Virus record (IMG/VR): IMGVR_UViG_2925877141_000002
Length of the DNA: 33,848 nucleotides
Strand: one strand, 5' to 3'
DNA from: a virus
Lineage: Duplodnaviria > Heunggongvirae > Uroviricota > Caudoviricetes
The translations under genes and the position numbers were made by a program. Below are positions 6,087 through 21,295 of the stretch, in pieces. The notes under the pieces are model-generated. The model made no database searches, was not told the origin of the DNA, and saw only the letters and a list, made by a program, of their open reading frames with translations. Numbering within the stretch: position 1 is the stretch's first letter; each line of letters opens with the position of its first letter.

Positions 6087-6144
6087 AAAAACGGCGGCAG
6101 AGCAGTCACGGAGTAAAACTGATACCGCCAAACGTCACCAGAAA
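6087..6144 (-). ncRNA. dicF: DicF small RNA with 3' stem-loop and U tract
   Basis: Reverse complement of 6092..6144 reads UUUCUGGUGACGUUUGGCGGUAUCAGUUUUACUCCGUGACUGCUCUGCCGCCG followed by UUUUU; matches DicF as recalled; sits between ydfC-like and dicB. Confidence 0.8.
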
Positions 6145-7304: not shown

Positions 7305-7712
7305 TTATTTTATTGATTTATTTTTACGCGCTTTAAGCATTTCTTCGAAGAGTTTGTTGAAGTTTTCTACTCTTGCGCGCATTTCAGACAGCAAGGCTTC
7401 CTGCTCGGAAGATGGAAGAGCATCGAATAATTCGATCAATTCTTTGTGGTTGGGAGTTAGCTCTGTTTCCACATGAAGTTCTTGTGCAGGCACTGGTGCC
7501 TTGTCTTCGTCACCAAACATTAGCCATGTAGGTGAGCACTTCAGAGCATCCGCTAAAGCAAACAATCGTTTTCCGACTGGCTGGGTTTCGTCTCTTTCCC
7601 ATTGTGAAATTGTGACGTGAGCAACTCCAGCGAGGCGCGCAGCTTCTCGTTGTGTTAAGCGTAATTCTTTTCGTCGCGCCAGAACTCGCTGGCCTAGGGT
7701 TCTTGTATCCAT
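7305..7712 (-). CDS. dicA: XRE-family HTH repressor DicA (CI-like)
   Basis: 135 aa MDTRTLGQRVLARRKELRLTQREAARLAGVAHVTISQWERDETQP...; divergent from dicC. Confidence 0.9.
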   Translation of the reverse strand: MDTRTLGQRVLARRKELRLTQREAARLAGVAHVTISQWERDETQPVGKRLFALADALKCSPTWLMFGDEDKAPVPAQELHVETELTPNHKELIELFDALPSSEQEALLSEMRARVENFNKLFEEMLKARKNKSIK

Positions 7713-7761
7713 AGTTAGGTAATTCTAATTTTTCTTGACTTAGATATCCCGCGCACAATAA

Positions 7762-7779
7762 TGTTAGAAAAGTCTAACA
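7762..7779. promoter_or_regulatory. Palindromic operator TGTTAGA-N4-TCTAACA in the dicA/dicC divergent promoter region
   Basis: Perfect inverted repeat between the divergent starts of dicA (7712) and dicC (7793). Confidence 0.5.
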
Positions 7780-7792
7780 AGAGGGGGCTTTG

Positions 7793-8020
7793 ATGCTTAA
7801 AGTTGACGCAATTACTTTTTTTGGCAGCAAAACAAAGCTTGCCAATGCCGCAGGAGTGAGACTGGCAAGTGTTGCTGCTTGGGGGATACTGGTTCCTGAA
7901 GGTCGCGCGATGCGTCTACAGGAGGCATCTGGCGGGGAGCTTCTGTATGATCCCAAGGTTTATGACGAATATCGTAAGACGAAGCGGGCGGGGCGGTTGA
8001 ACAATGAAAATCACTCCTGA
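7793..8020 (+). CDS. dicC: Cro-like regulator DicC
   Basis: MLKVDAITFFGSKTKLANAAGVRLASVAAWG...RKTKRAGRLNNENHS; GAGGGGG RBS 5 nt upstream. Confidence 0.8.
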   Translation: MLKVDAITFFGSKTKLANAAGVRLASVAAWGILVPEGRAMRLQEASGGELLYDPKVYDEYRKTKRAGRLNNENHS

Positions 8021-8525
8021 ACAGGCTCGTGAGGCTCTGGATGCCTGGATATGTCGACCAGGAATGACACAGGAGCAGGCGACGATATTAATCACTGAAG
8101 CATTCTGGGCTTTGAAAGAGCGCCCGAACATCGATGTTCAGCGTGTCACAGATGAAGGTGGCGCGGTTGATCAGCGAGCGCTTGGCGTTAATCGAGTGAA
8201 GATATTCGAACGCTGGAAGGCTATCGACACCAGGGATAAGCGTGAAAAGTTCACGGCGCTAGTGCCTGCAATTATGGAGGCTATCCGGATTAATGATTTC
8301 AGGTTGTATCGTGAAATTAGTGACGGAAAAAGCATCACGTACATGATCGCCGGGTTAAACAAAGAATATGGCGATGTGGTGGAGTCCGGACTGCTTTTTG
8401 CTGATCCTGCCGTAGTGGATCGTGAAACTGACGAACTTATAGAAAAAGCAATTGCTTTCAAACTTGCGTATCGACAGCAATACCAACAAAAAGCTGGATG
8501 GAATTATGAGCCTTCTTTTTGCTGA
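8004..8525 (+). CDS. YdaT-family phage early protein (CII-position)
   Basis: 173 aa, translationally coupled to dicC (overlap 8004-8020); N-terminus and LPAI motif resemble Rac YdaT as recalled. Confidence 0.5.
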   Translation: MKITPEQAREALDAWICRPGMTQEQATILITEAFWALKERPNIDVQRVTDEGGAVDQRALGVNRVKIFERWKAIDTRDKREKFTALVPAIMEAIRINDFRLYREISDGKSITYMIAGLNKEYGDVVESGLLFADPAVVDRETDELIEKAIAFKLAYRQQYQQKAGWNYEPSFC

Positions 8526-9471
8526 ACGCCCACTGGTTATAAACACACAGCTTGCGATGAAGATTGGCTTAAATGAAGCCATTGTGTTGCAGCAGTTGCA
8601 TTACTGGTTGAGAGATACCAATTCCGGCATGGAATGTGATGGTGTTCGCTGGATTTACAACACAACGGAACAATGGCTGGAACAGTTCCCATTCTGGTCA
8701 GAGTCAACGTTAAAGCGCGCGTTTGCAAGTCTGAAAACGCTGGGGCTTTTGCGTTGTGAAAAGCTCAATAAATCAAAGCGCGATATGACCAATTTCTACA
8801 CGATCAACTATGGGAGCGAGCTTTTAGATGGTGGCAAATTGAACGAATCCATCGGTTCAAAATGCGCCGCTCCATCAGGTCAAAATGACACGATGGAAGA
8901 GGTCAAAATGAAACGCTCCATTGGTTCAAAACGACCCAATGTCATCGGGTCAAAATGGCCTGATGATCTTACAGAGAATACAACAGAGATTACTACAGAG
9001 AATAAAAACACTTTTCGTCCGGAAGCTTCGCAACCGGACCCGCAGACCGCTGAACAGGATTTTTTAATCCGGAACCCCGACGCGGTTGTGTTTAGTGCGA
9101 AAAAACGCCAGTGGGGTAGCAGGGAGGATTTGGCGTGTGCGCAGTGGATTTGGGGGCGGATCGTGAACCTTTACGAACAGGCTGCCAGCGACGATGGAGA
9201 GATCATGCGACCAAAAGAGCCTAACTGGACAGCCTGGGCCAATGACGTGCGCACAATGCGGATGCTGGATGGCAGAAGCCACAGACAAATTTGCGAAATG
9301 TTTGGTCGGGTACAGCGAGATCCATTCTGGGTAAAAAACATCATGAGCCCGTCAAAACTCCGCGAAAAATGGGACGAACTGGTCATCCGCTTGGGACGTT
9401 CACCTGTACAGCGTTGTGTGAATCATATTTCTGAACCGGATACAGAAATTCCGCCTGGTTTCAGGGGATAA
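8506..9471 (+). CDS. Phage replication initiator (O-like), contains internal iteron array
   Basis: 321 aa from ATG 8506; N-terminal winged-helix-like region; five direct repeats inside the gene encode the repeated peptide SIGSK. Confidence 0.6.
   Translation: MSLLFAERPLVINTQLAMKIGLNEAIVLQQLHYWLRDTNSGMECDGVRWIYNTTEQWLEQFPFWSESTLKRAFASLKTLGLLRCEKLNKSKRDMTNFYTINYGSELLDGGKLNESIGSKCAAPSGQNDTMEEVKMKRSIGSKRPNVIGSKWPDDLTENTTEITTENKNTFRPEASQPDPQTAEQDFLIRNPDAVVFSAKKRQWGSREDLACAQWIWGRIVNLYEQAASDDGEIMRPKEPNWTAWANDVRTMRMLDGRSHRQICEMFGRVQRDPFWVKNIMSPSKLREKWDELVIRLGRSPVQRCVNHISEPDTEIPPGFRG
8848..8958. repeat. Five direct iterons (core GGT(T)CAAAA(T/C)G) at 23-24 bp spacing followed by A+T-rich ACAGAGA repeats: candidate origin of replication
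   Basis: Cores at 8855, 8878, 8901, 8924, 8948; ori-within-initiator layout as in lambda O. Confidence 0.6.
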
Positions 9472-9511: not shown

Positions 9512-9934
9512 GTGGCAAAAGTTTTTACACAGGAAGAGCGGGAAAAAATTAAAGAGCAGGTGGTCGAACTTGTGCGCCAGAGCGGTCGCGAGACATTACG
9601 ACAGTTGGAAGCTAAAACAGGTGCGACAAGATATCTGATGAGCATTCTTGCCAGAGAGCTGGTTGCCAGTGGTTATGTATACAACTCCGGCTACGGGTTA
9701 TTCCCGTCTGAACAGGCACGAAAGGACTGGCAAAATGCCCGCAAAAAACTCTCTAGGGCGAAGGTGAAGAAACCCGCTGTGGTTGATCCGGACCTTATCT
9801 GGTCACTACCTGATGGAGAAATACGTCGCTACGACAGTCGTCTAAACATAATCTGTCGCGAGTGCCGGAAGAGTGAAGCTATGCAGCGTGTACTGGCTTT
9901 CTATCAGGGTAATTTTCAGGAGGCGGTACTGTGA
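9512..9934 (+). CDS. Hypothetical early-region protein
   Basis: 140-aa ORF, GTG start with AAGGAGG RBS 4 nt upstream; no recognisable helicase-loader motifs. Confidence 0.5.
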   Translation: MAKVFTQEEREKIKEQVVELVRQSGRETLRQLEAKTGATRYLMSILARELVASGYVYNSGYGLFPSEQARKDWQNARKKLSRAKVKKPAVVDPDLIWSLPDGEIRRYDSRLNIICRECRKSEAMQRVLAFYQGNFQEAVL

Positions 9935-10171
9935 GTGAAATTAGCTATCAGGCTTCAATTACCGCTGGCATTCGCATCAAAGGAGAGGAGCATGGAAATA
10001 AAACCAGAGGATTAGTTAAGCAATATCGTTTTATTTCCGATAAAAGAGGATGACCCTCGTAATCAGGTTAATTTTCTTTATGAGCCATCGGAAAGACCAT
10101 ATTGCCATCACGCTTCTGTCCGGGTTGACGAAAAAGAGCGTCAGGTCCGCTGTAAAATCTGAGGTGCAGTT

Positions 10172-10348
10172 GTGGAGCCATTTGACTGGATGCTCTCTGT
10201 GGCGAAAAGAGAAACCAGACTGGCAGATGATGTAAGGCTCTTGCGCCAGGAGGAACGGGAAAGACGAAAAAATATAGAAAAGCTAATTCAGATTGAGCGT
10301 AACGGGAAAGCGCGGATACGCAGGGTGACAAAATCCAGAACTGAATAA
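10172..10348 (+). CDS. Hypothetical small charged protein
   Basis: 58 codons from GTG with GAGGTG RBS; overlaps a 61-aa ORF in another frame, so uncertain. Confidence 0.3.
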   Translation: MEPFDWMLSVAKRETRLADDVRLLRQEERERRKNIEKLIQIERNGKARIRRVTKSRTE

Positions 10349-10418
10349 TTAAATTTAGCACTGTTAAAAATTTAATCCTTAACCGGAGGGATTTCTGCAC
10401 CCTCAGAACATCAGGAGG

Positions 10419-10434
10419 CCGCCCGAAAGGGCGG
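10419..10434 (+). promoter_or_regulatory. GC hairpin (CCGCCC-GAAA-GGGCGG) between SD AGGAGG (10413-10418) and ATG 10442
   Basis: Perfect 6-bp stem with GAAA loop; unfolded spacing is 23 nt, folded about 6 nt. Confidence 0.4.
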
Positions 10435-10441
10435 TAGTTAA

Positions 10442-10579
10442 ATGCGAAAGTTTAAAATAATTATTGAAACGGGAATAGCCGGTGGAGATTTCGAGGATGA
10501 ATTCGAAGTGGATAATGATGCGACGCCTGATGAAATACATGACGAAGCAAAAGATATTTTCTTTAACTACTGCAATTAA
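10442..10579 (+). CDS. Small acidic protein, 45 aa
   Basis: MRKFKIIIETGIAGGDFEDEFEVDNDATPDEIHDEAKDIFFNYCN; D/E-rich. Confidence 0.4.
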   Translation: MRKFKIIIETGIAGGDFEDEFEVDNDATPDEIHDEAKDIFFNYCN

Positions 10580-10616
10580 TCATATCACGAAATAAAAGAC
10601 GAAGAGGAAGAACAAA

Positions 10617-10793
10617 ATGGCTGATTTTGGTTCAACTAAATACAACGTCGGTTTTGAAGAATGGCATGAACTGTTAATGGACTATGCAGAGTTACGTGGT
10701 GGCAGTGCTGCTGATGCTGAAGCATGGCGTGATGATTATGAAGCAGGAAAAACTCCGGTCGAAGCATATTGTGATGAGTGGGGCGATGAATGA
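10617..10793 (+). CDS. Small acidic protein, 58 aa
   Basis: MADFGSTKYNVGFEEWHELLMDYAELRGGSAADAEAWRDDYEAGKTPVEAYCDEWGDE; GAGGAAG RBS 6 nt upstream; 17 D/E against 5 K/R/H. Confidence 0.45.
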   Translation: MADFGSTKYNVGFEEWHELLMDYAELRGGSAADAEAWRDDYEAGKTPVEAYCDEWGDE

Positions 10794-11275
10794 GCGAGGT
10801 TAATTATCAGGAAGGGCATGAAACGGCGGGGCAAGCAAAAACAGTGGCATGGCGATATCGCTACGTGAAAAAAAGGCGTTACGGACTTTCAGGGGAAGTA
10901 GTGATCTGGTGACTGGAAATATGTACCGAAAAAAGAGGATTGTAACGATAGGCCGAACTATGAAATTCAGGCCTTATTCACTGCCCCGCCAGTCCCGGTT
11001 ACATCAGAAGAACTGGTTAAAGCTGTGCACTTTTATGAACAACTAAAACGCGAAAATCCACCAGCATCCGGAAACCTGATTACAGGTTCCCAGATAAGGC
11101 AATGAGCTACCTGGCGCAGAACGGGCTGATAAGTATGGGGAATGTTTTACGATGAATATTTAGACTAAAGAGTTTGTAACGCTATGTAAGTGATTTTTTC
11201 TGGTTTAGATATTTATATGTCCGGCTAAATTGAGGTGTGTTTAAATGTTATTGCACATTGATTGTAGGGGGAATA

Positions 11276-11455: not shown

Positions 11456-11712
11456 ATACAGCGAACTCCATTGGTTTAGTTGGATATTTACTGTGCTGGA
11501 CAAAACGGTTTGCGGGGAAATCTTAGTTAAGTAGAATGACTGCGGGTGCTTGAGGCTATCTGCCTCGGGCACGAACACCAACGGCAGGTAGAGAAAAGCC
11601 CCAGTTAACATTACGCGTCCTGCAAGACGCTTAACATTAATCTGAGGCCAATTTCATGCTAGACACATGTAGGTTAGCCTCTTACGTGCCGAAAGGCAAG
11701 GAGAAGCAGGCT

Positions 11713-11868
11713 ATGAAGCAGCAAAAGGCGATGTTAATCGCCCTGATCGTCATCTGTTTAACCGTCATAGTGACGGCACTGGTAACGAGGAAAGACCTCT
11801 GCGAGGTACGAATCCGAACCGGCCAGACGGAGGTCGCTGTCTTCACAGCTTACGAACCTGAGGAGTAA
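11713..11868 (+). CDS. hokD: Hok-family type I toxin (HokD/RelF-like)
   Basis: 51 aa MKQQKAMLIALIVICLTVIVTALVTRKDLCEVRIRTGQTEVAVFTAYEPEE; AAGGAGAAG RBS; same frame is open upstream to 11656; terminator downstream. Confidence 0.85.
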   Translation: MKQQKAMLIALIVICLTVIVTALVTRKDLCEVRIRTGQTEVAVFTAYEPEE

Positions 11869-18605: not shown

Positions 18606-18821
18606 ATGAAATCCATGGATAAGTTAACAACGGGCATCGCCTACAGCACCTCTGCAGGCAGTGCTGGCTACTGGTTTTTACAGTTGCTCGATAAAGTCAC
18701 ACCCTCACAGTGGGCGGCAATAGGTGTATTGGGTAGTCTGGTATTTGGCATGCTGACGTATCTGACAAACCTTTATTTCAAGATTAAAGAAGACAGGCGT
18801 AAGGCTGCGAGAGGAGAGTAA
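18606..18821 (+). CDS. Class II holin / pinholin (phage 21 S21-like) with dual-start motif
   Basis: [71 protein letters not shown]; two in-frame ATGs (18606, 18615); GGAGGTGAGG RBS. Confidence 0.85.
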
Positions 18822-18825
18822 GACA

Positions 18826-19044
18826 ATGACTAAAAACTATGAACTGATTGTGAAAGGGACCCGCAATTTTGAGAATAAAGTTACGGTAATCTTAACGTTA
18901 CAGGACAAAGAACGTTTTGCCGGTGAAATTTTTGATCTGAACATCAACCTTGAGCGACTTGAAGGAGCTGGTTTGGATTATTATGAAGTTACTGCGGTAA
19001 AACATGCCAAACAGTTCTTGAGAGATTTGGCTGAAAAAATATAA
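18826..19044 (+). CDS. Hypothetical protein inserted between holin and endolysin
   Basis: 72 aa, AGGAGAG RBS, starts 5 nt after the holin stop. Confidence 0.45.
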   Translation: MTKNYELIVKGTRNFENKVTVILTLQDKERFAGEIFDLNINLERLEGAGLDYYEVTAVKHAKQFLRDLAEKI

Positions 19045-19062
19045 AGCGGCATTACTGCCGCT
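19045..19062. terminator. Bidirectional hairpin terminator between convergent ORFs (AGCGGCA-TTAC-TGCCGCT)
   Basis: Perfect 7-bp stem exactly between the two stop codons (19042-44 and 19069-71); U-rich tract follows on the minus-strand transcript, weaker on plus. Confidence 0.6.
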
Positions 19063-19068
19063 TAGAAA

Positions 19069-19365
19069 TTATTCAATGTCTGGTAGCTTATCAAAGATTT
19101 CGGATACTCTTATATTTGTCATATAAGCAAATTGAGATTCTGCCAGCTCTTTGGGTGATTTTCCCGCTTTTTCTGAGCCAAAAATTGTTTCTAAAGCCAG
19201 CATGTTATATTTGAGAACCTCTTCTCGAGTTTTACCTGATAATTTTGCGGTAACAGCAATATAAAAAGGCAACACTTTATCCAGAAGGTCGTTGTGTTTT
19301 GTCAGTTGTGGTAATACCACATCAAGTTGCTTACTGATTGGTTTGAATGGATCTATACCGTTCAT
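19069..19365 (-). CDS. Hypothetical protein, opposite strand, inside the lysis cassette
   Basis: 98 aa, AAGGGA RBS; convergent with the 72-aa ORF. Confidence 0.45.
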   Translation of the reverse strand: MNGIDPFKPISKQLDVVLPQLTKHNDLLDKVLPFYIAVTAKLSGKTREEVLKYNMLALETIFGSEKAGKSPKELAESQFAYMTNIRVSEIFDKLPDIE

Positions 19366-19492
19366 AGTTACATTCCCTTATCAGAGGTAATCAGCCATCC
19401 CCCCTTTATTACACACGCCAGTATCCACCACTGACGGGCTGAGTGCTTAACATATCTAGAGATTAGAAACTGATAAATCCTGATAAATATCC

Positions 19493-20520
<1,028 letters not shown>

Positions 20521-20883
20521 ATTAATATTAAATCGGATTATTTTTAGCGCTGAATGTGAAATTTAAATAAAAAGGACTCTTCCATGAGTCAAAATCCTTG
20601 AAATCTTAAGGGTAAGATAAAAGGTCATTAGACAGAATGACACGTTTTATTAATAAATAAAGCTATTGTTTCATTCGTGTGTTTTTCTTTACAAAAGTAA
20701 TCCTTGCTATGGTTGGTTAATCATGCGTTAATGGTGTTCTGGTTTGTTACAAAATTATCTGAAGCAGTCATTGTTATAATTTTATTATTTGTACCTCTTG
20801 AGATTTCCTTGTTGGTTTTTCTCTCTGATATTTTTTTTCGGACCATTCTGCCCAAGGGCTAACTTCTTCAAAAGGTAATAATG

Positions 20884-21096
20884 ATGTCTAACAAAATGAC
20901 TGGTTTAGTGAAATGGTTTAACCCTGAAAAAGGTTTTGGTTTCATCACGCCGAAAGATGGTAGCAAAGATGTGTTTGTCCATTTCTCAGCTATTCAGAGC
21001 AACGATTTCAAAACGTTAACTGAGAATCAGGAAGTCGAATTTGGTATTGAGAACGGACCTAAAGGCCCCGCGGCTGTTCATGTTGTGGCACTTTGA
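20884..21096 (+). CDS. cspI: CspA-family cold-shock protein (CspI/CspB-like)
   Basis: 70 aa [38 protein letters not shown]...; long A+T-rich leader 20521-20880. Confidence 0.9.
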
Positions 21097-21295
21097 GGTA
21101 GAAAATATTACAAACCATATTCACTTTAGATGCCCGTGTTGCCATGGTTCTCAGTATAGAACATCATCTTTTGATGTTTCTGACAGGAATCCTTTCGGGG
21201 CAAAATGTATCTTTTGTAAATCAATGATGATTACATTTGATAATATTTCACAATACTTAAATGTTAGCCGTCTGTCGTTAGATTTAAGAAAGTGA
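21080..21295 (+). CDS. Small zinc-ribbon protein (CPCCH...CxxC)
   Basis: About 71 aa; only available start overlaps the csp 3' end; terminator follows. Confidence 0.4.

What the first reader, a model, noticed from the sequence alone, without database searches (positions are those of the whole stretch)
8848..9010. Iteron array inside the replication initiator gene: candidate prophage origin
Five direct repeats with core GGT(T)CAAAA(T/C)G at 23-24 bp spacing (about two helical turns) are followed by an A+T-rich ACAGAGA stretch, all within the O-like gene and encoding a repeated SIGSK peptide. This is the lambda-type ori-in-O layout.
Basis: partly seen in the sequence, partly recalled or inferred. 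Interest (0 to 1): 0.4.

Follow-up and report, generated by a model that had tools for sequence, protein, structure and literature searches.

The report
Prophage replication origin inside initiator gene
The repeats are real and are very probably the replication origin of an E. coli lambda-like prophage, sitting inside its own initiator gene as in phage lambda, but the initiator's DNA-binding domain and binding sites resemble a Gram-positive plasmid initiator family, not lambda O.

Summary
Five GKTCAAAAYG cores lie at 23/23/23/24-bp spacing (0.54 expected by chance), with a degenerate sixth copy upstream. Each is a ~23-bp imperfect dyad around an A-tract. Three 12-mers (ACAGAGAATACA) follow, then a GC-rich dyad. 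The 23-bp period puts the repeats in all three reading frames, so this is a DNA repeat, not a peptide repeat.

The DNA is under selection. Identical amino acids use identical codons in 88% (iterons) and 97% (12-mers) of cases, against 53-54% in flanking domains. Third-position diversity collapses across ~8829-9045, which encodes a predicted disordered linker.

Every intact homologue sharing the N-terminal domain keeps such an array (the Niallia array is weak), including Bacillus, Staphylococcus and Klebsiella phages. Homologues sharing only the C-domain have different repeat words. Searching viral contigs for the 12-mer alone recovers this N-domain in 96 of 120 loci.

Verdict: a replication origin of a known kind, not annotated and not tested experimentally.

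The parts
7735..7762 (+). pR-like sigma-70 promoter upstream of the cro-like gene. Transcription from here would run through cro, the YdaT/cII-like gene and the initiator gene, including the origin.
   Evidence: TTGACT-16-AATAAT, 10 of 12 matches; gene order. A role in activating the origin is inferred from lambda.
8506..9471 (+). Replication initiator gene (321 aa; RefSeq 'phage O protein family'). It has an N-terminal winged-helix domain, a disordered linker, a lambda-O-like C-terminal domain and a DnaT-like tail.
   Evidence: (phrog_391, E 2.7e-92). No Pfam family matches.
8524..8829 (+). Coding region of the N-terminal winged-helix domain (residues ~7-108), the presumed iteron-binding domain.
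8827..8849 (+). Iteron 0, a degenerate copy (GATGGTGGCAAATTGAACGAATC).
   Evidence: first copy of family D1; a good copy, GAGGTCAAAGTGACC, in L012 and L017; dyad centre 8838.
8850..8872 (+). Iteron 1 (CATCGGTTCAAAATGCGCCGCTC), read in frame 1 as SIGSK.
8873..8895 (+). Iteron 2 (CATCAGGTCAAAATGACACGATG), read in frame 0 as PSGQND. Its core is kept in 65 of 67 alleles.
   Evidence: (I1 arm).
8896..8918 (+). Iteron 3 (GAAGAGGTCAAAATGAAACGCTC), read in frame 2 as EEVKMK. It is the least symmetric copy and one of the two most variable in sequence.
8919..8941 (+). Iteron 4 (CATTGGTTCAAAACGACCCAATG), read in frame 1 as SIGSK.
8943..8965 (+). Iteron 5 (CATCGGGTCAAAATGGCCTGATG), read in frame 1 as VIGSK. 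It is next to the 12-mers, and its core is kept in 66 of 67 alleles.
   Evidence: (I1 arm).
8971..9006 (+). Three tandem 12-mers (ACAGAGAATACA / ACAGAGATTACT / ACAGAGAATAAA), the presumed DNA-unwinding or loading element.
   Evidence: TRF. Least stable 40-mer of the gene. Invariant in 66-67 of 67 alleles. Codon identity 97% among identical residues. The same motif follows iteron arrays in more than 100 viral contigs.
9017..9039 (+). GC-rich dyad GTCCGG-(11 nt)-CCGGAC just after the 12-mers, inside the low-diversity stretch. This is the position of the palindrome to the right of lambda's A+T-rich region.
   Evidence: third-position diversity ~0.01-0.03 up to ~9045; most stable stretch, dG -63.9; lambda comparison. 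Its function is inferred.
9031..9393 (+). Coding region of the helical C-terminal domain (residues ~176-296), homologous to the C-terminal part of lambda O.
   Evidence: 36.8% identity over residues 170-294 to lambda-type O proteins, E ~3e-18; 46 of 113 identical to lambda O; pLDDT 70-85.
9406..9468 (+). C-terminal tail VQRCVNHISEPDTEIPPGFRG, matching the extreme C-terminus of E. coli DnaT.
   Evidence: (14 of 20 identical, E 4e-8). Its presence correlates with absence of a lambda-P gene.
9512..9934 (+). Downstream gene, a DUF977 / 'Ren-like' protein, at the position where lambda has P. No helicase or helicase-loader gene is present in the module.

Best explanation
The stretch of about 8827-9045 is the vegetative replication origin of a Qin-like lambdoid prophage, embedded in the linker-coding part of its own initiator gene.

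Proposed mechanism:
1. After derepression, transcription from the pR-like promoter produces the initiator.
2. Dimers of its N-terminal winged-helix domain bind the five to six ~23-bp semi-palindromic iterons (half-sites GGTCA / TGACC around an A-tract). With ~23-bp spacing they build a wrapped nucleoprotein complex like the lambda O-some or the RepA_N-ori complex.
3. The stress is released in the adjacent tandem 12-mers, which open.
4. The lambda-O-like C-terminal domain and its DnaT-like tail then bring in the host helicase-loading machinery, without a phage P protein.

Shown here: the repeats, their dyad structure, their position, DNA-level purifying selection, their conservation together with the N-domain, and the fold of that domain. 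Inferred: binding, unwinding, origin firing and the route of helicase recruitment.
For: 1. Non-random array. Five cores are found against 0.54 expected, and 0 of 100 shuffles reach 5.

2. DNA-level repeat. The 23-bp period places copies in all three reading frames.

3. Selection on the DNA across nine diverged homologues. Identical residues use the identical codon in 199/226 cases in the iterons and 101/104 in the 12-mers, against 612/1152 in the flanking domains (Fisher p 3e-25 and 1e-22). Amino-acid identity is no higher there.

4. Selection on the DNA among 67 close alleles. Third positions vary at 19/73 sites in 8829-9045 against 154/249 elsewhere (p 6e-8). First and second positions are more variable there (38/144 against 74/500), so the protein is relaxed while the DNA is constrained.

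5. The region encodes a predicted disordered linker, residues 109-175 with pLDDT ~25, between two folded domains.

6. The 12-mers are the least stable 40-mer of the gene, about 3 sd below the mean, and they directly follow the iterons.

7. Conservation. All intact enterobacterial homologues with this N-domain keep the array even when the C-domain is unrelated (L012-L017). The Bacillus L022, Klebsiella phage ZX1 and Staphylococcus phage 42E relatives keep the dyad, A-tract centre, 22-23-bp spacing and 12-mers with altered half-sites. Homologues with the same C-domain but another N-domain have other repeat words (L011, L018-21, L026, lambda).

8. Reverse test. Of 120 viral contigs found only by the 12-mer DNA motif, 116 have it inside an ORF, 96 of those ORFs carry this N-domain, and 89 have an array of at least 3 copies upstream. 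Half-sites change together with the predicted recognition helix.

10. The layout matches lambda, which has 4 iterons at 20/24/23 bp in codons ~116-144 of O, followed by an A+T-rich region and a palindrome.

11. The cultivated phage mEp460 carries a 98.4% identical gene with the same array.
Against: There is no experimental evidence of binding, unwinding or origin activity for this family in anything I could find.

Co-variation between the N-domain and the iterons is also expected from physical linkage alone.

The structural model has moderate confidence (mean pLDDT 61.6). Sequence profiles do not reach RepA_N or lambda O N-domains.

In the widespread 'C' variant the 12-mer is about 45% G+C, so 'easily melted' cannot be its only property.

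This particular prophage carries an IS3 insertion and several pseudogenes, so the origin may never fire here.

Some distant carriers of the N-domain (L027-L029) have unrelated 21-bp arrays after a second copy of the domain.
Confidence: 0.85

Rival explanations
1. The repeats are initiator-binding sites, but they serve autoregulation, copy control or exclusion of related phages by titrating the initiator, and the true initiation site lies elsewhere in the prophage.
For: Iterons in plasmids also act in copy control and incompatibility, and ectopic ori-lambda copies inhibit lambda (titles and abstracts listed: PMC4488673, PMC3349717). Nothing here measures initiation.
Against: The array is directly joined to the least stable stretch of the gene. 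It is also joined to a 12-mer element that co-occurs with such arrays in more than 100 phage contigs. This is the same layout as the experimentally defined origins of lambda and pSK41. No other cluster of the motif exists in the 33.8-kb window.
Confidence: 0.06
2. It is an origin by descent but inactive in this window. The prophage is decaying, and the array persists only because it has not yet mutated.
For: An IS3 element interrupts the lysis region, and several neighbouring genes are annotated as pseudogenes.
Against: The initiator gene is intact and is 100% identical in many E. coli genomes. The array differs at one base from that of the cultivated phage mEp460. Across 67 alleles the iteron cores and 12-mers are kept while flanking synonymous sites vary, which indicates ongoing purifying selection in the population. 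This rival concerns activity in one host, not the nature of the element.
Confidence: 0.06
3. The repeat is a protein feature, a repetitive flexible linker (SIGSK units), and the DNA periodicity is its shadow.
For: Three copies encode [SV]IGSK, and the region encodes a disordered linker.
Against: The copies lie in three different reading frames. Synonymous positions are the conserved ones, and first and second codon positions are more variable than elsewhere. Natural alleles that lack 31 codons of the linker keep the reading frame open. Half-sites keep their dyad symmetry, which has no meaning in protein.
Confidence: 0.02
4. The repeats bind a different protein, either a partition or centromere-binding protein or a host factor such as DnaA or IHF, and not the initiator.
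For: Tandem dyads at about two helical turns also occur in centromere-like sites.
Against: No DnaA box lies in the element; the nearest is at 9523. The repeat word tracks the N-terminal domain of the very gene that contains it across phyla, whatever the neighbouring genes are. No partition genes are annotated in the module.
Confidence: 0.02

Closest known systems
ori-lambda within gene O of phage lambda (and the six-iteron origins of Stx phages 933W and P27)
   Same: The origin lies inside the initiator gene at the junction of the N- and C-terminal domain coding parts. There are 4-6 dyad-symmetric iterons with a central A-tract at 20-24-bp spacing, followed by an A+T-rich, purine-skewed stretch and then a palindrome. 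Transcription runs through from pR past cro and cII-like genes. The C-terminal domain is homologous, ~37% identical.
   Different: The N-terminal DNA-binding domain shows no significant similarity to lambda O (19 of 50 identical in the best local alignment; no Phage_rep_O hit). The iteron word is GGTCA-AAA-TGACC, not TCCCTC-AAAA-CGAGGGA. The unwinding element is a conserved tandem 12-mer, not a simple A-rich run. There is no P gene. The C-terminus ends in ...IPPGFRG instead of lambda's ...TNTDWIYGVDL.
RepA_N-family theta replicons (pSK41 / pTZ2162 Rep; Vibrio cholerae PLE RepA)
   Different: There is no sequence-level match to Pfam RepA_N, and an N-domain profile does not reach RepA structures. 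The element is in a lambdoid prophage of a Gram-negative host, with a lambda-O-type C-domain. Antisense-RNA control as in pSK41 was not looked for.
PHROG 391 'replication initiation O-like' / RefSeq 'phage O protein family'
   Same: The protein matches phrog_391 end to end (E 2.7e-92) and is so named in RefSeq.
   Different: These are gene-level labels. Neither annotates an origin, and most of the 4,297 relatives found are called 'hypothetical protein' with no Pfam domain.
E. coli primosomal protein DnaT
   Same: The last 20-21 residues are 70% identical, and both end the protein in IPPGFRG.
   Different: Nothing else aligns. The protein is not a DnaT homologue, so the database name 'Primosomal protein I' given to the mEp460 gene overstates the relationship.

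Membership tests
Lambda-type origin (ori-lambda / O-P module) | Iterons located inside the initiator gene, between the parts coding for the N- and C-terminal domains | tested here: met
   The array lies at codons ~108-153 and the linker at residues 109-175 is predicted disordered. In lambda the iterons lie at codons ~116-144.
Lambda-type origin (ori-lambda / O-P module) | Several dyad-symmetric repeats about two helical turns apart, followed by an easily melted A+T-rich stretch | tested here: met
   (spacing 23/23/23/24; 12-mers are the least stable 40-mer of the gene).
Lambda-type origin (ori-lambda / O-P module) | Initiator N-terminal domain of the lambda O type (Pfam Phage_rep_O) | tested here: not met
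   No Pfam hit even at E<=10. tblastn similarity to lambda-type O proteins covers only residues 170-294. The local alignment of the N-domains gives 19 of 50 identical, score 35.
Lambda-type origin (ori-lambda / O-P module) | C-terminal domain homologous to lambda O | tested here: met
   36.8% identity, E ~3e-18; 46 of 113 identical.
Lambda-type origin (ori-lambda / O-P module) | Partner helicase loader P encoded immediately downstream | tested here: not met
   The next gene is DUF977. Relatives with a lambda-type tail do have PF06992.
Lambda-type origin (ori-lambda / O-P module) | Initiator binds the repeats, and the fragment supports initiator-dependent replication | not testable with these tools
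   This needs EMSA or footprinting and a replication assay.
RepA_N-type replicon | Sequence membership in Pfam RepA_N (PF06970) | tested here: not met
   Searches give no hit. The profile of 14 N-domains searched against PDB sequences finds only weak generic winged-helix matches.
RepA_N-type replicon | N-terminal winged-helix domain with the RepA_N / DnaD-NTD fold | tested here: met
RepA_N-type replicon | Origin located centrally within the rep gene, encoding a dispensable linker | tested here: inconclusive
   The position and the predicted disorder fit. Natural 290-aa alleles lack 31 linker codons and stay in frame. Whether those proteins are active is unknown.
RepA_N-type replicon | [quoted passage not shown] | tested here: met
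   the definition is quoted from PMC7145576.
PHROG 391 (replication initiation O-like) | Full-length match to the family profile | tested here: met
   E 2.7e-92, residues 17-321 against profile positions 11-298 of 298.
DnaT (primosomal protein I) | Homology over the DnaT N- and C-terminal domains | tested here: not met
   Only residues 301-321 align.

The most novel reading that the evidence does not exclude
The window holds one example of a widespread, uncharacterised replication cassette. It consists of a Pfam-less RepA_N-like winged-helix domain, 22-24-bp-spaced dyad iterons, and a sequence-conserved tandem 12-mer (CAGAGAnTAC).

On this reading the 12-mer is a specific recognition or loading element, not a mere A+T-rich melting zone. 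The cassette is shared between Gram-positive and Gram-negative phages and recombines with many different C-terminal 'adaptor' domains.

In E. coli prophages the adaptor is a lambda-O-like domain whose ...IPPGFRG tail mimics the C-terminus of host DnaT. It would recruit the host restart primosome (PriA/DnaT partners, and hence DnaB-DnaC), making the phage independent of a P-type loader.
Probability: 0.35. Interest if true: 0.65.

Novelty: new member of a known kind. Interest (0 to 1): 0.45.

Why it matters
The origin of a prophage family present in a large share of E. coli genomes is not annotated. At least 80% of the gene matches in 1,778 of 5,426 complete genomes. Most relatives of its initiator are labelled 'hypothetical protein'.

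Placing the origin gives a defined cis element, about 8827-9045, for building or disabling replicons. It also helps interpret read-depth peaks after prophage induction and predict incompatibility between co-resident lambdoid prophages.

It further shows that initiators with the RepA_N-type fold and iteron style are common in enterobacterial prophages, hidden by sequence divergence. A 2019 paper described RepA_N initiators as rare in Gram-negative bacteria.

The side observations, if they hold, give a testable handle on two points. The first is how a lambda-like phage loads DnaB without P. [quoted passage not shown]

Tried and rejected
The motif was re-specified as GKTCAAAAYG.
- Pfam and NCBIfam gave no family for the initiator, even at E<=10 on separate domains.
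- An N-domain profile searched against PDB sequences gave only weak generic winged-helix hits. The RepA_N link therefore rests on fold and layout only.
- Rfam found nothing in or near the array on either strand, so I found no evidence for an RNA element.
- No DnaA box lies in the element.
- The peptide-repeat reading was rejected on reading-frame and codon evidence.
- A viral-contig scan with the N-domain alignment returned only 96-100% identical E. coli loci and added no diversity. It was replaced by a scan with the 12-mer DNA motif.
- My first Python scan for arrays timed out, and one covariation script crashed on short flanks. Both were rerun.
- Literature searches for 'initiator-solo' replication modules, the PGFRG motif (collagen papers only), mEp460 (prophage-prediction mentions only) and Gram-positive phage in-gene origins gave nothing specific.
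- The Eru classification of Stx-phage replication regions does not describe this module or any origin.
- The DnaT preprimosome paper does not say what the last ~20 residues of DnaT do in the sections I read.
- Homology of the whole C-domain to DnaT was tested and rejected.

Full report
**What is in the sequence.**
The window is a Qin-like lambdoid prophage of E. coli integrated next to rspB. It is identical in gene coordinates to NZ_CP019271. The gene order around the finding is: cI-like repressor (7305-7712, -), a pR-like promoter (7735-7762), cro-like gene, YdaT/cII-like gene, then a 321-aa gene at 8506-9471, then a DUF977 gene.

Inside the 321-aa gene there are five cores matching GKTCAAAAYG at 8855, 8878, 8901, 8924 and 8948, spaced 23, 23, 23 and 24 bp apart. 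These are the only five matches in 33.8 kb. Shuffles give a mean of 0.54, and none of 100 reaches five.

Each unit is a ~23-bp imperfect dyad, CATCrGGTCA-AAA-TGACCyGATG, and a degenerate sixth unit lies upstream at about 8827-8849. Three tandem 12-mers follow at 8971-9006. They form the least stable 40-bp stretch of the gene, dG -45.6 kcal/mol against a mean of -56.4 with sd 3.5. Immediately after them comes the most stable stretch, which contains a GTCCGG-(11)-CCGGAC dyad at 9017-9039.

**DNA repeat or peptide repeat.**
A 23-bp period cannot preserve a reading frame. Copies 1, 4 and 5 are read as [SV]IGSK, copy 2 as PSGQND and copy 3 as EEVKMK. The 'repeated SIGSK peptide' is therefore a by-product.

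Nine diverged homologues have N-domains 63-96% identical to the window's. In them, residues that are identical to the window also use the identical codon in 199/226 cases in the iteron stretch and 101/104 in the 12-mers. The figure is 612/1152 in the flanking domains (Fisher p 3e-25 and 1e-22). Amino-acid identity is no higher in the repeat region.

Among 67 distinct close alleles, third codon positions vary at 19/73 sites in 8829-9045 against 154/249 elsewhere (p 6e-8). First and second positions are more variable there (38/144 against 74/500). The three 12-mers are invariant in 66-67 of 67 alleles, and iterons 2 and 5 are nearly so. This is the signature of a relaxed protein linker lying over constrained DNA.

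**The protein around it.**
There is no Pfam or NCBIfam family for the protein, but it matches phrog_391 'replication initiation O-like' end to end.

It is a mosaic. Residues 170-294 are about 37% identical to the C-terminal part of lambda-type O proteins. Residues 1-140 instead resemble initiators of Staphylococcus, Bacillus and Klebsiella phages.

An AlphaFold model (mean pLDDT 61.6) shows a winged-helix-type N-domain at residues 7-108 with pLDDT 70-88. Residues 109-175 have pLDDT ~25. A helical C-domain spans 176-296, and the tail is disordered. The low-confidence linker maps to nt ~8830-9030, which is exactly the repeat region.

Every enterobacterial homologue that shares the N-domain keeps 3-6 GGTCAAA-type repeats at 23/24 bp, and nearly all keep 3-5 12-mers. 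These come from Escherichia, Trabulsiella, Edwardsiella, Enterobacter, Citrobacter, Izhakiella and Raoultella. This holds even where the C-domain is unrelated, at 22-33% identity.

More distant carriers keep the same plan with altered half-sites:
- A Bacillus locus with 57% N-domain identity has GTGTTCAAAATGAAC four times at 22/23 bp, followed by CAGAGACTAC 12-mers.
- Klebsiella phage ZX1 has GGGCAAAATGCCC-type repeats, followed by ACAGAGACTAC three times.
- Staphylococcus phage 42E has GGACAAAATGGCC-type repeats, followed by CAGAGACTA.
- A Niallia locus even has ACAGAGAATAAAAAC, identical to the window.

Relatives with the same C-domain but another N-domain have other repeat words: CCGCAAAC, CGTCAAAAT at 15 bp, GTGTCACTA, and lambda's TCCCTCAAAACGAGGGA.

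**Reverse test.**
I searched viral contigs for the DNA motif CAGAGACTACNNCAGAGACTA alone. It returned at least 120 loci, where I estimate one or fewer would be expected by chance for 19 specified bases. This is my estimate, because the size of the collection is not given.
- In 116 loci the motif is inside an ORF of at least 150 aa.
- In 96 that ORF carries this N-domain, just upstream of the motif.
- In 89 an array of at least three copies, mostly at 22-23 bp, precedes it.
- Only 13 have a lambda-O-like C-domain.

Across 67 distinct combinations of N-domain and site, half-sites change together with the predicted recognition helix. Examples are WSESTLKR with GGTCA, WS[IV]DT[VI]KR with GGGCA, WSADTVRR with TGGCA and LSEKTIQRY with GGGAC. 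The dyad, the A/T centre and the spacing persist throughout. Physical linkage alone would also produce such co-variation, so this is consistent with direct recognition but does not prove it.

**Mechanism.**
The anatomy matches two experimentally defined systems.
- In lambda, four iterons (six in Stx phages) in the middle of O bind O. The adjacent A+T-rich tract unwinds (PMC7466680; sequence).
- In RepA_N plasmids, the NTD binds Rep boxes centrally within rep. The ori-encoded segment is a dispensable linker, and the CTD contacts host factors (PMC5703833). The iterons are semi-palindromes that converge on a poly-A tract (PMC7145576).

I therefore propose that N-domain dimers bind the iterons, the 12-mers open, and the C-domain recruits the helicase machinery. 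Confidence is 0.85 for 'this is the origin'. Binding and firing are inferred, not shown.

**Helicase recruitment (a side finding).**
No P, DnaC-type or DnaB-type gene follows the initiator, either here or in the cultivated phages mEp460 and Kati.

The last 21 residues, VQRCVNHISEPDTEIPPGFRG, match the extreme C-terminus of E. coli DnaT: 14 of 20 identical, E 4e-8. Nothing else in the two proteins aligns.

Across independent loci and phages the tail type predicts the next gene:
- A lambda-like W-rich acidic tail goes with a lambda-P gene in 8 of 8 cases.
- A ...PxGFRG-type tail goes with P in 0 of 11 cases (Fisher p 1.3e-5, not corrected for phylogeny).

The tail swaps independently of the N-domain and iterons. 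L008 and L014 have GGTCAAAA iterons with a P-type tail. [quoted passage not shown] A DnaT-mimicking tail is thus a hypothesis with a clear test.

**Comparison, novelty and limits.**
Membership in the lambda O-P family fails on two tested features, the N-domain and P. Membership in RepA_N is met for fold, position and iteron style, but not for sequence.

I found no description of this origin or of the 12-mer in the searchable literature. That literature excludes most subscription journals, so older work may exist.

I rate the finding as a new member of a known kind, with moderate interest.

This prophage copy has an IS3 insertion and several pseudogenes, so the origin may be idle in this particular genome.

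Noticed in passing
window 9406-9468 (and the next gene, 9512-9934): The initiator ends in VQRCVNHISEPDTEIPPGFRG, 70% identical to the last 20 residues of host DnaT, and no P/DnaC/DnaB-type gene follows. Across 19 independent loci and phages, a lambda-type tail goes with a lambda-P gene (8 of 8) and a GFRG-type tail goes without one (0 of 11). A third tail type (...W..IW...REAA; Providencia phage PSTRCR_117lys, L009) also lacks P.
   Followed up: partly
viral loci L185-L304; also L022, L023, L111, L112: The tandem 12-mer CAGAGAnTAC is conserved as a sequence from E. coli to Bacillus and Staphylococcus phages. It almost always follows a 22-24-bp iteron array inside a gene with the same Pfam-less N-domain, while the C-termini are extremely diverse. 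The 'C' variant is ~45% G+C, so it is not simply an A+T-rich melting zone.
   Followed up: partly
proteins P0016, P0017, P0019, P0020, P0022 (alignment A1); locus L007: Natural 290-aa alleles lack exactly 31 codons (93 nt = 23+23+23+24). This is an in-frame deletion from iteron 1 to iteron 5, reminiscent of lambda's in-frame ori- deletions. L007 has a fourth 12-mer (978-nt gene). Copy number thus changes in frame-preserving steps.
   Followed up: partly
loci L027-L029 (Deferribacterales and Proteobacteria MAGs): Proteins of about 790 aa carry two tandem copies of the N-domain. They are followed by 4-8 repeats at 21-22 bp with unrelated words (TGACCAGTC, CCGCAACTT), a different architecture built from the same domain.
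   Followed up: no
locus L010 (Shigella flexneri CP182557): The homologous initiator gene is broken into several short ORFs, so it is a pseudogene, although the iteron-coding part is still recognisable.
   Followed up: no
window 18687-20445: An IS3-family element (transposase 18856-20018) splits a DUF2514 gene in the lysis region. Several small genes at 10025-11155 are annotated as pseudogenes. The prophage is probably not fully functional.
   Followed up: no
window 6092-6143 (-), 11544-11718 (+), 20726-21142 (+): Rfam matches above gathering score: DicF antisense RNA next to dicB/ydfD, sok antitoxin RNA upstream of hokD, and a cspA-type thermoregulator leader before cspI. These are typical cargo of Qin-type prophages.
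   Followed up: no
window 8004-8525 / 8506-9471; proteins P0001, P0003, P0004: The YdaT/cII-like gene overlaps the initiator start by 20 nt in another frame. Some database entries (448 aa, PF06254 plus initiator) appear to be fusions of the two genes. A TTG at 8452 would give a 339-aa initiator, but RefSeq uses the ATG at 8506.
   Followed up: no
Homologous-protein result; E. coli genome search: The initiator family is large: 4,297 relatives at E<=1e-5, with matches in 3,956 of 5,426 complete E. coli genomes, 1,778 of them covering at least 80% of the gene. Almost all relatives are annotated 'hypothetical protein' without any Pfam domain.
   Followed up: partly
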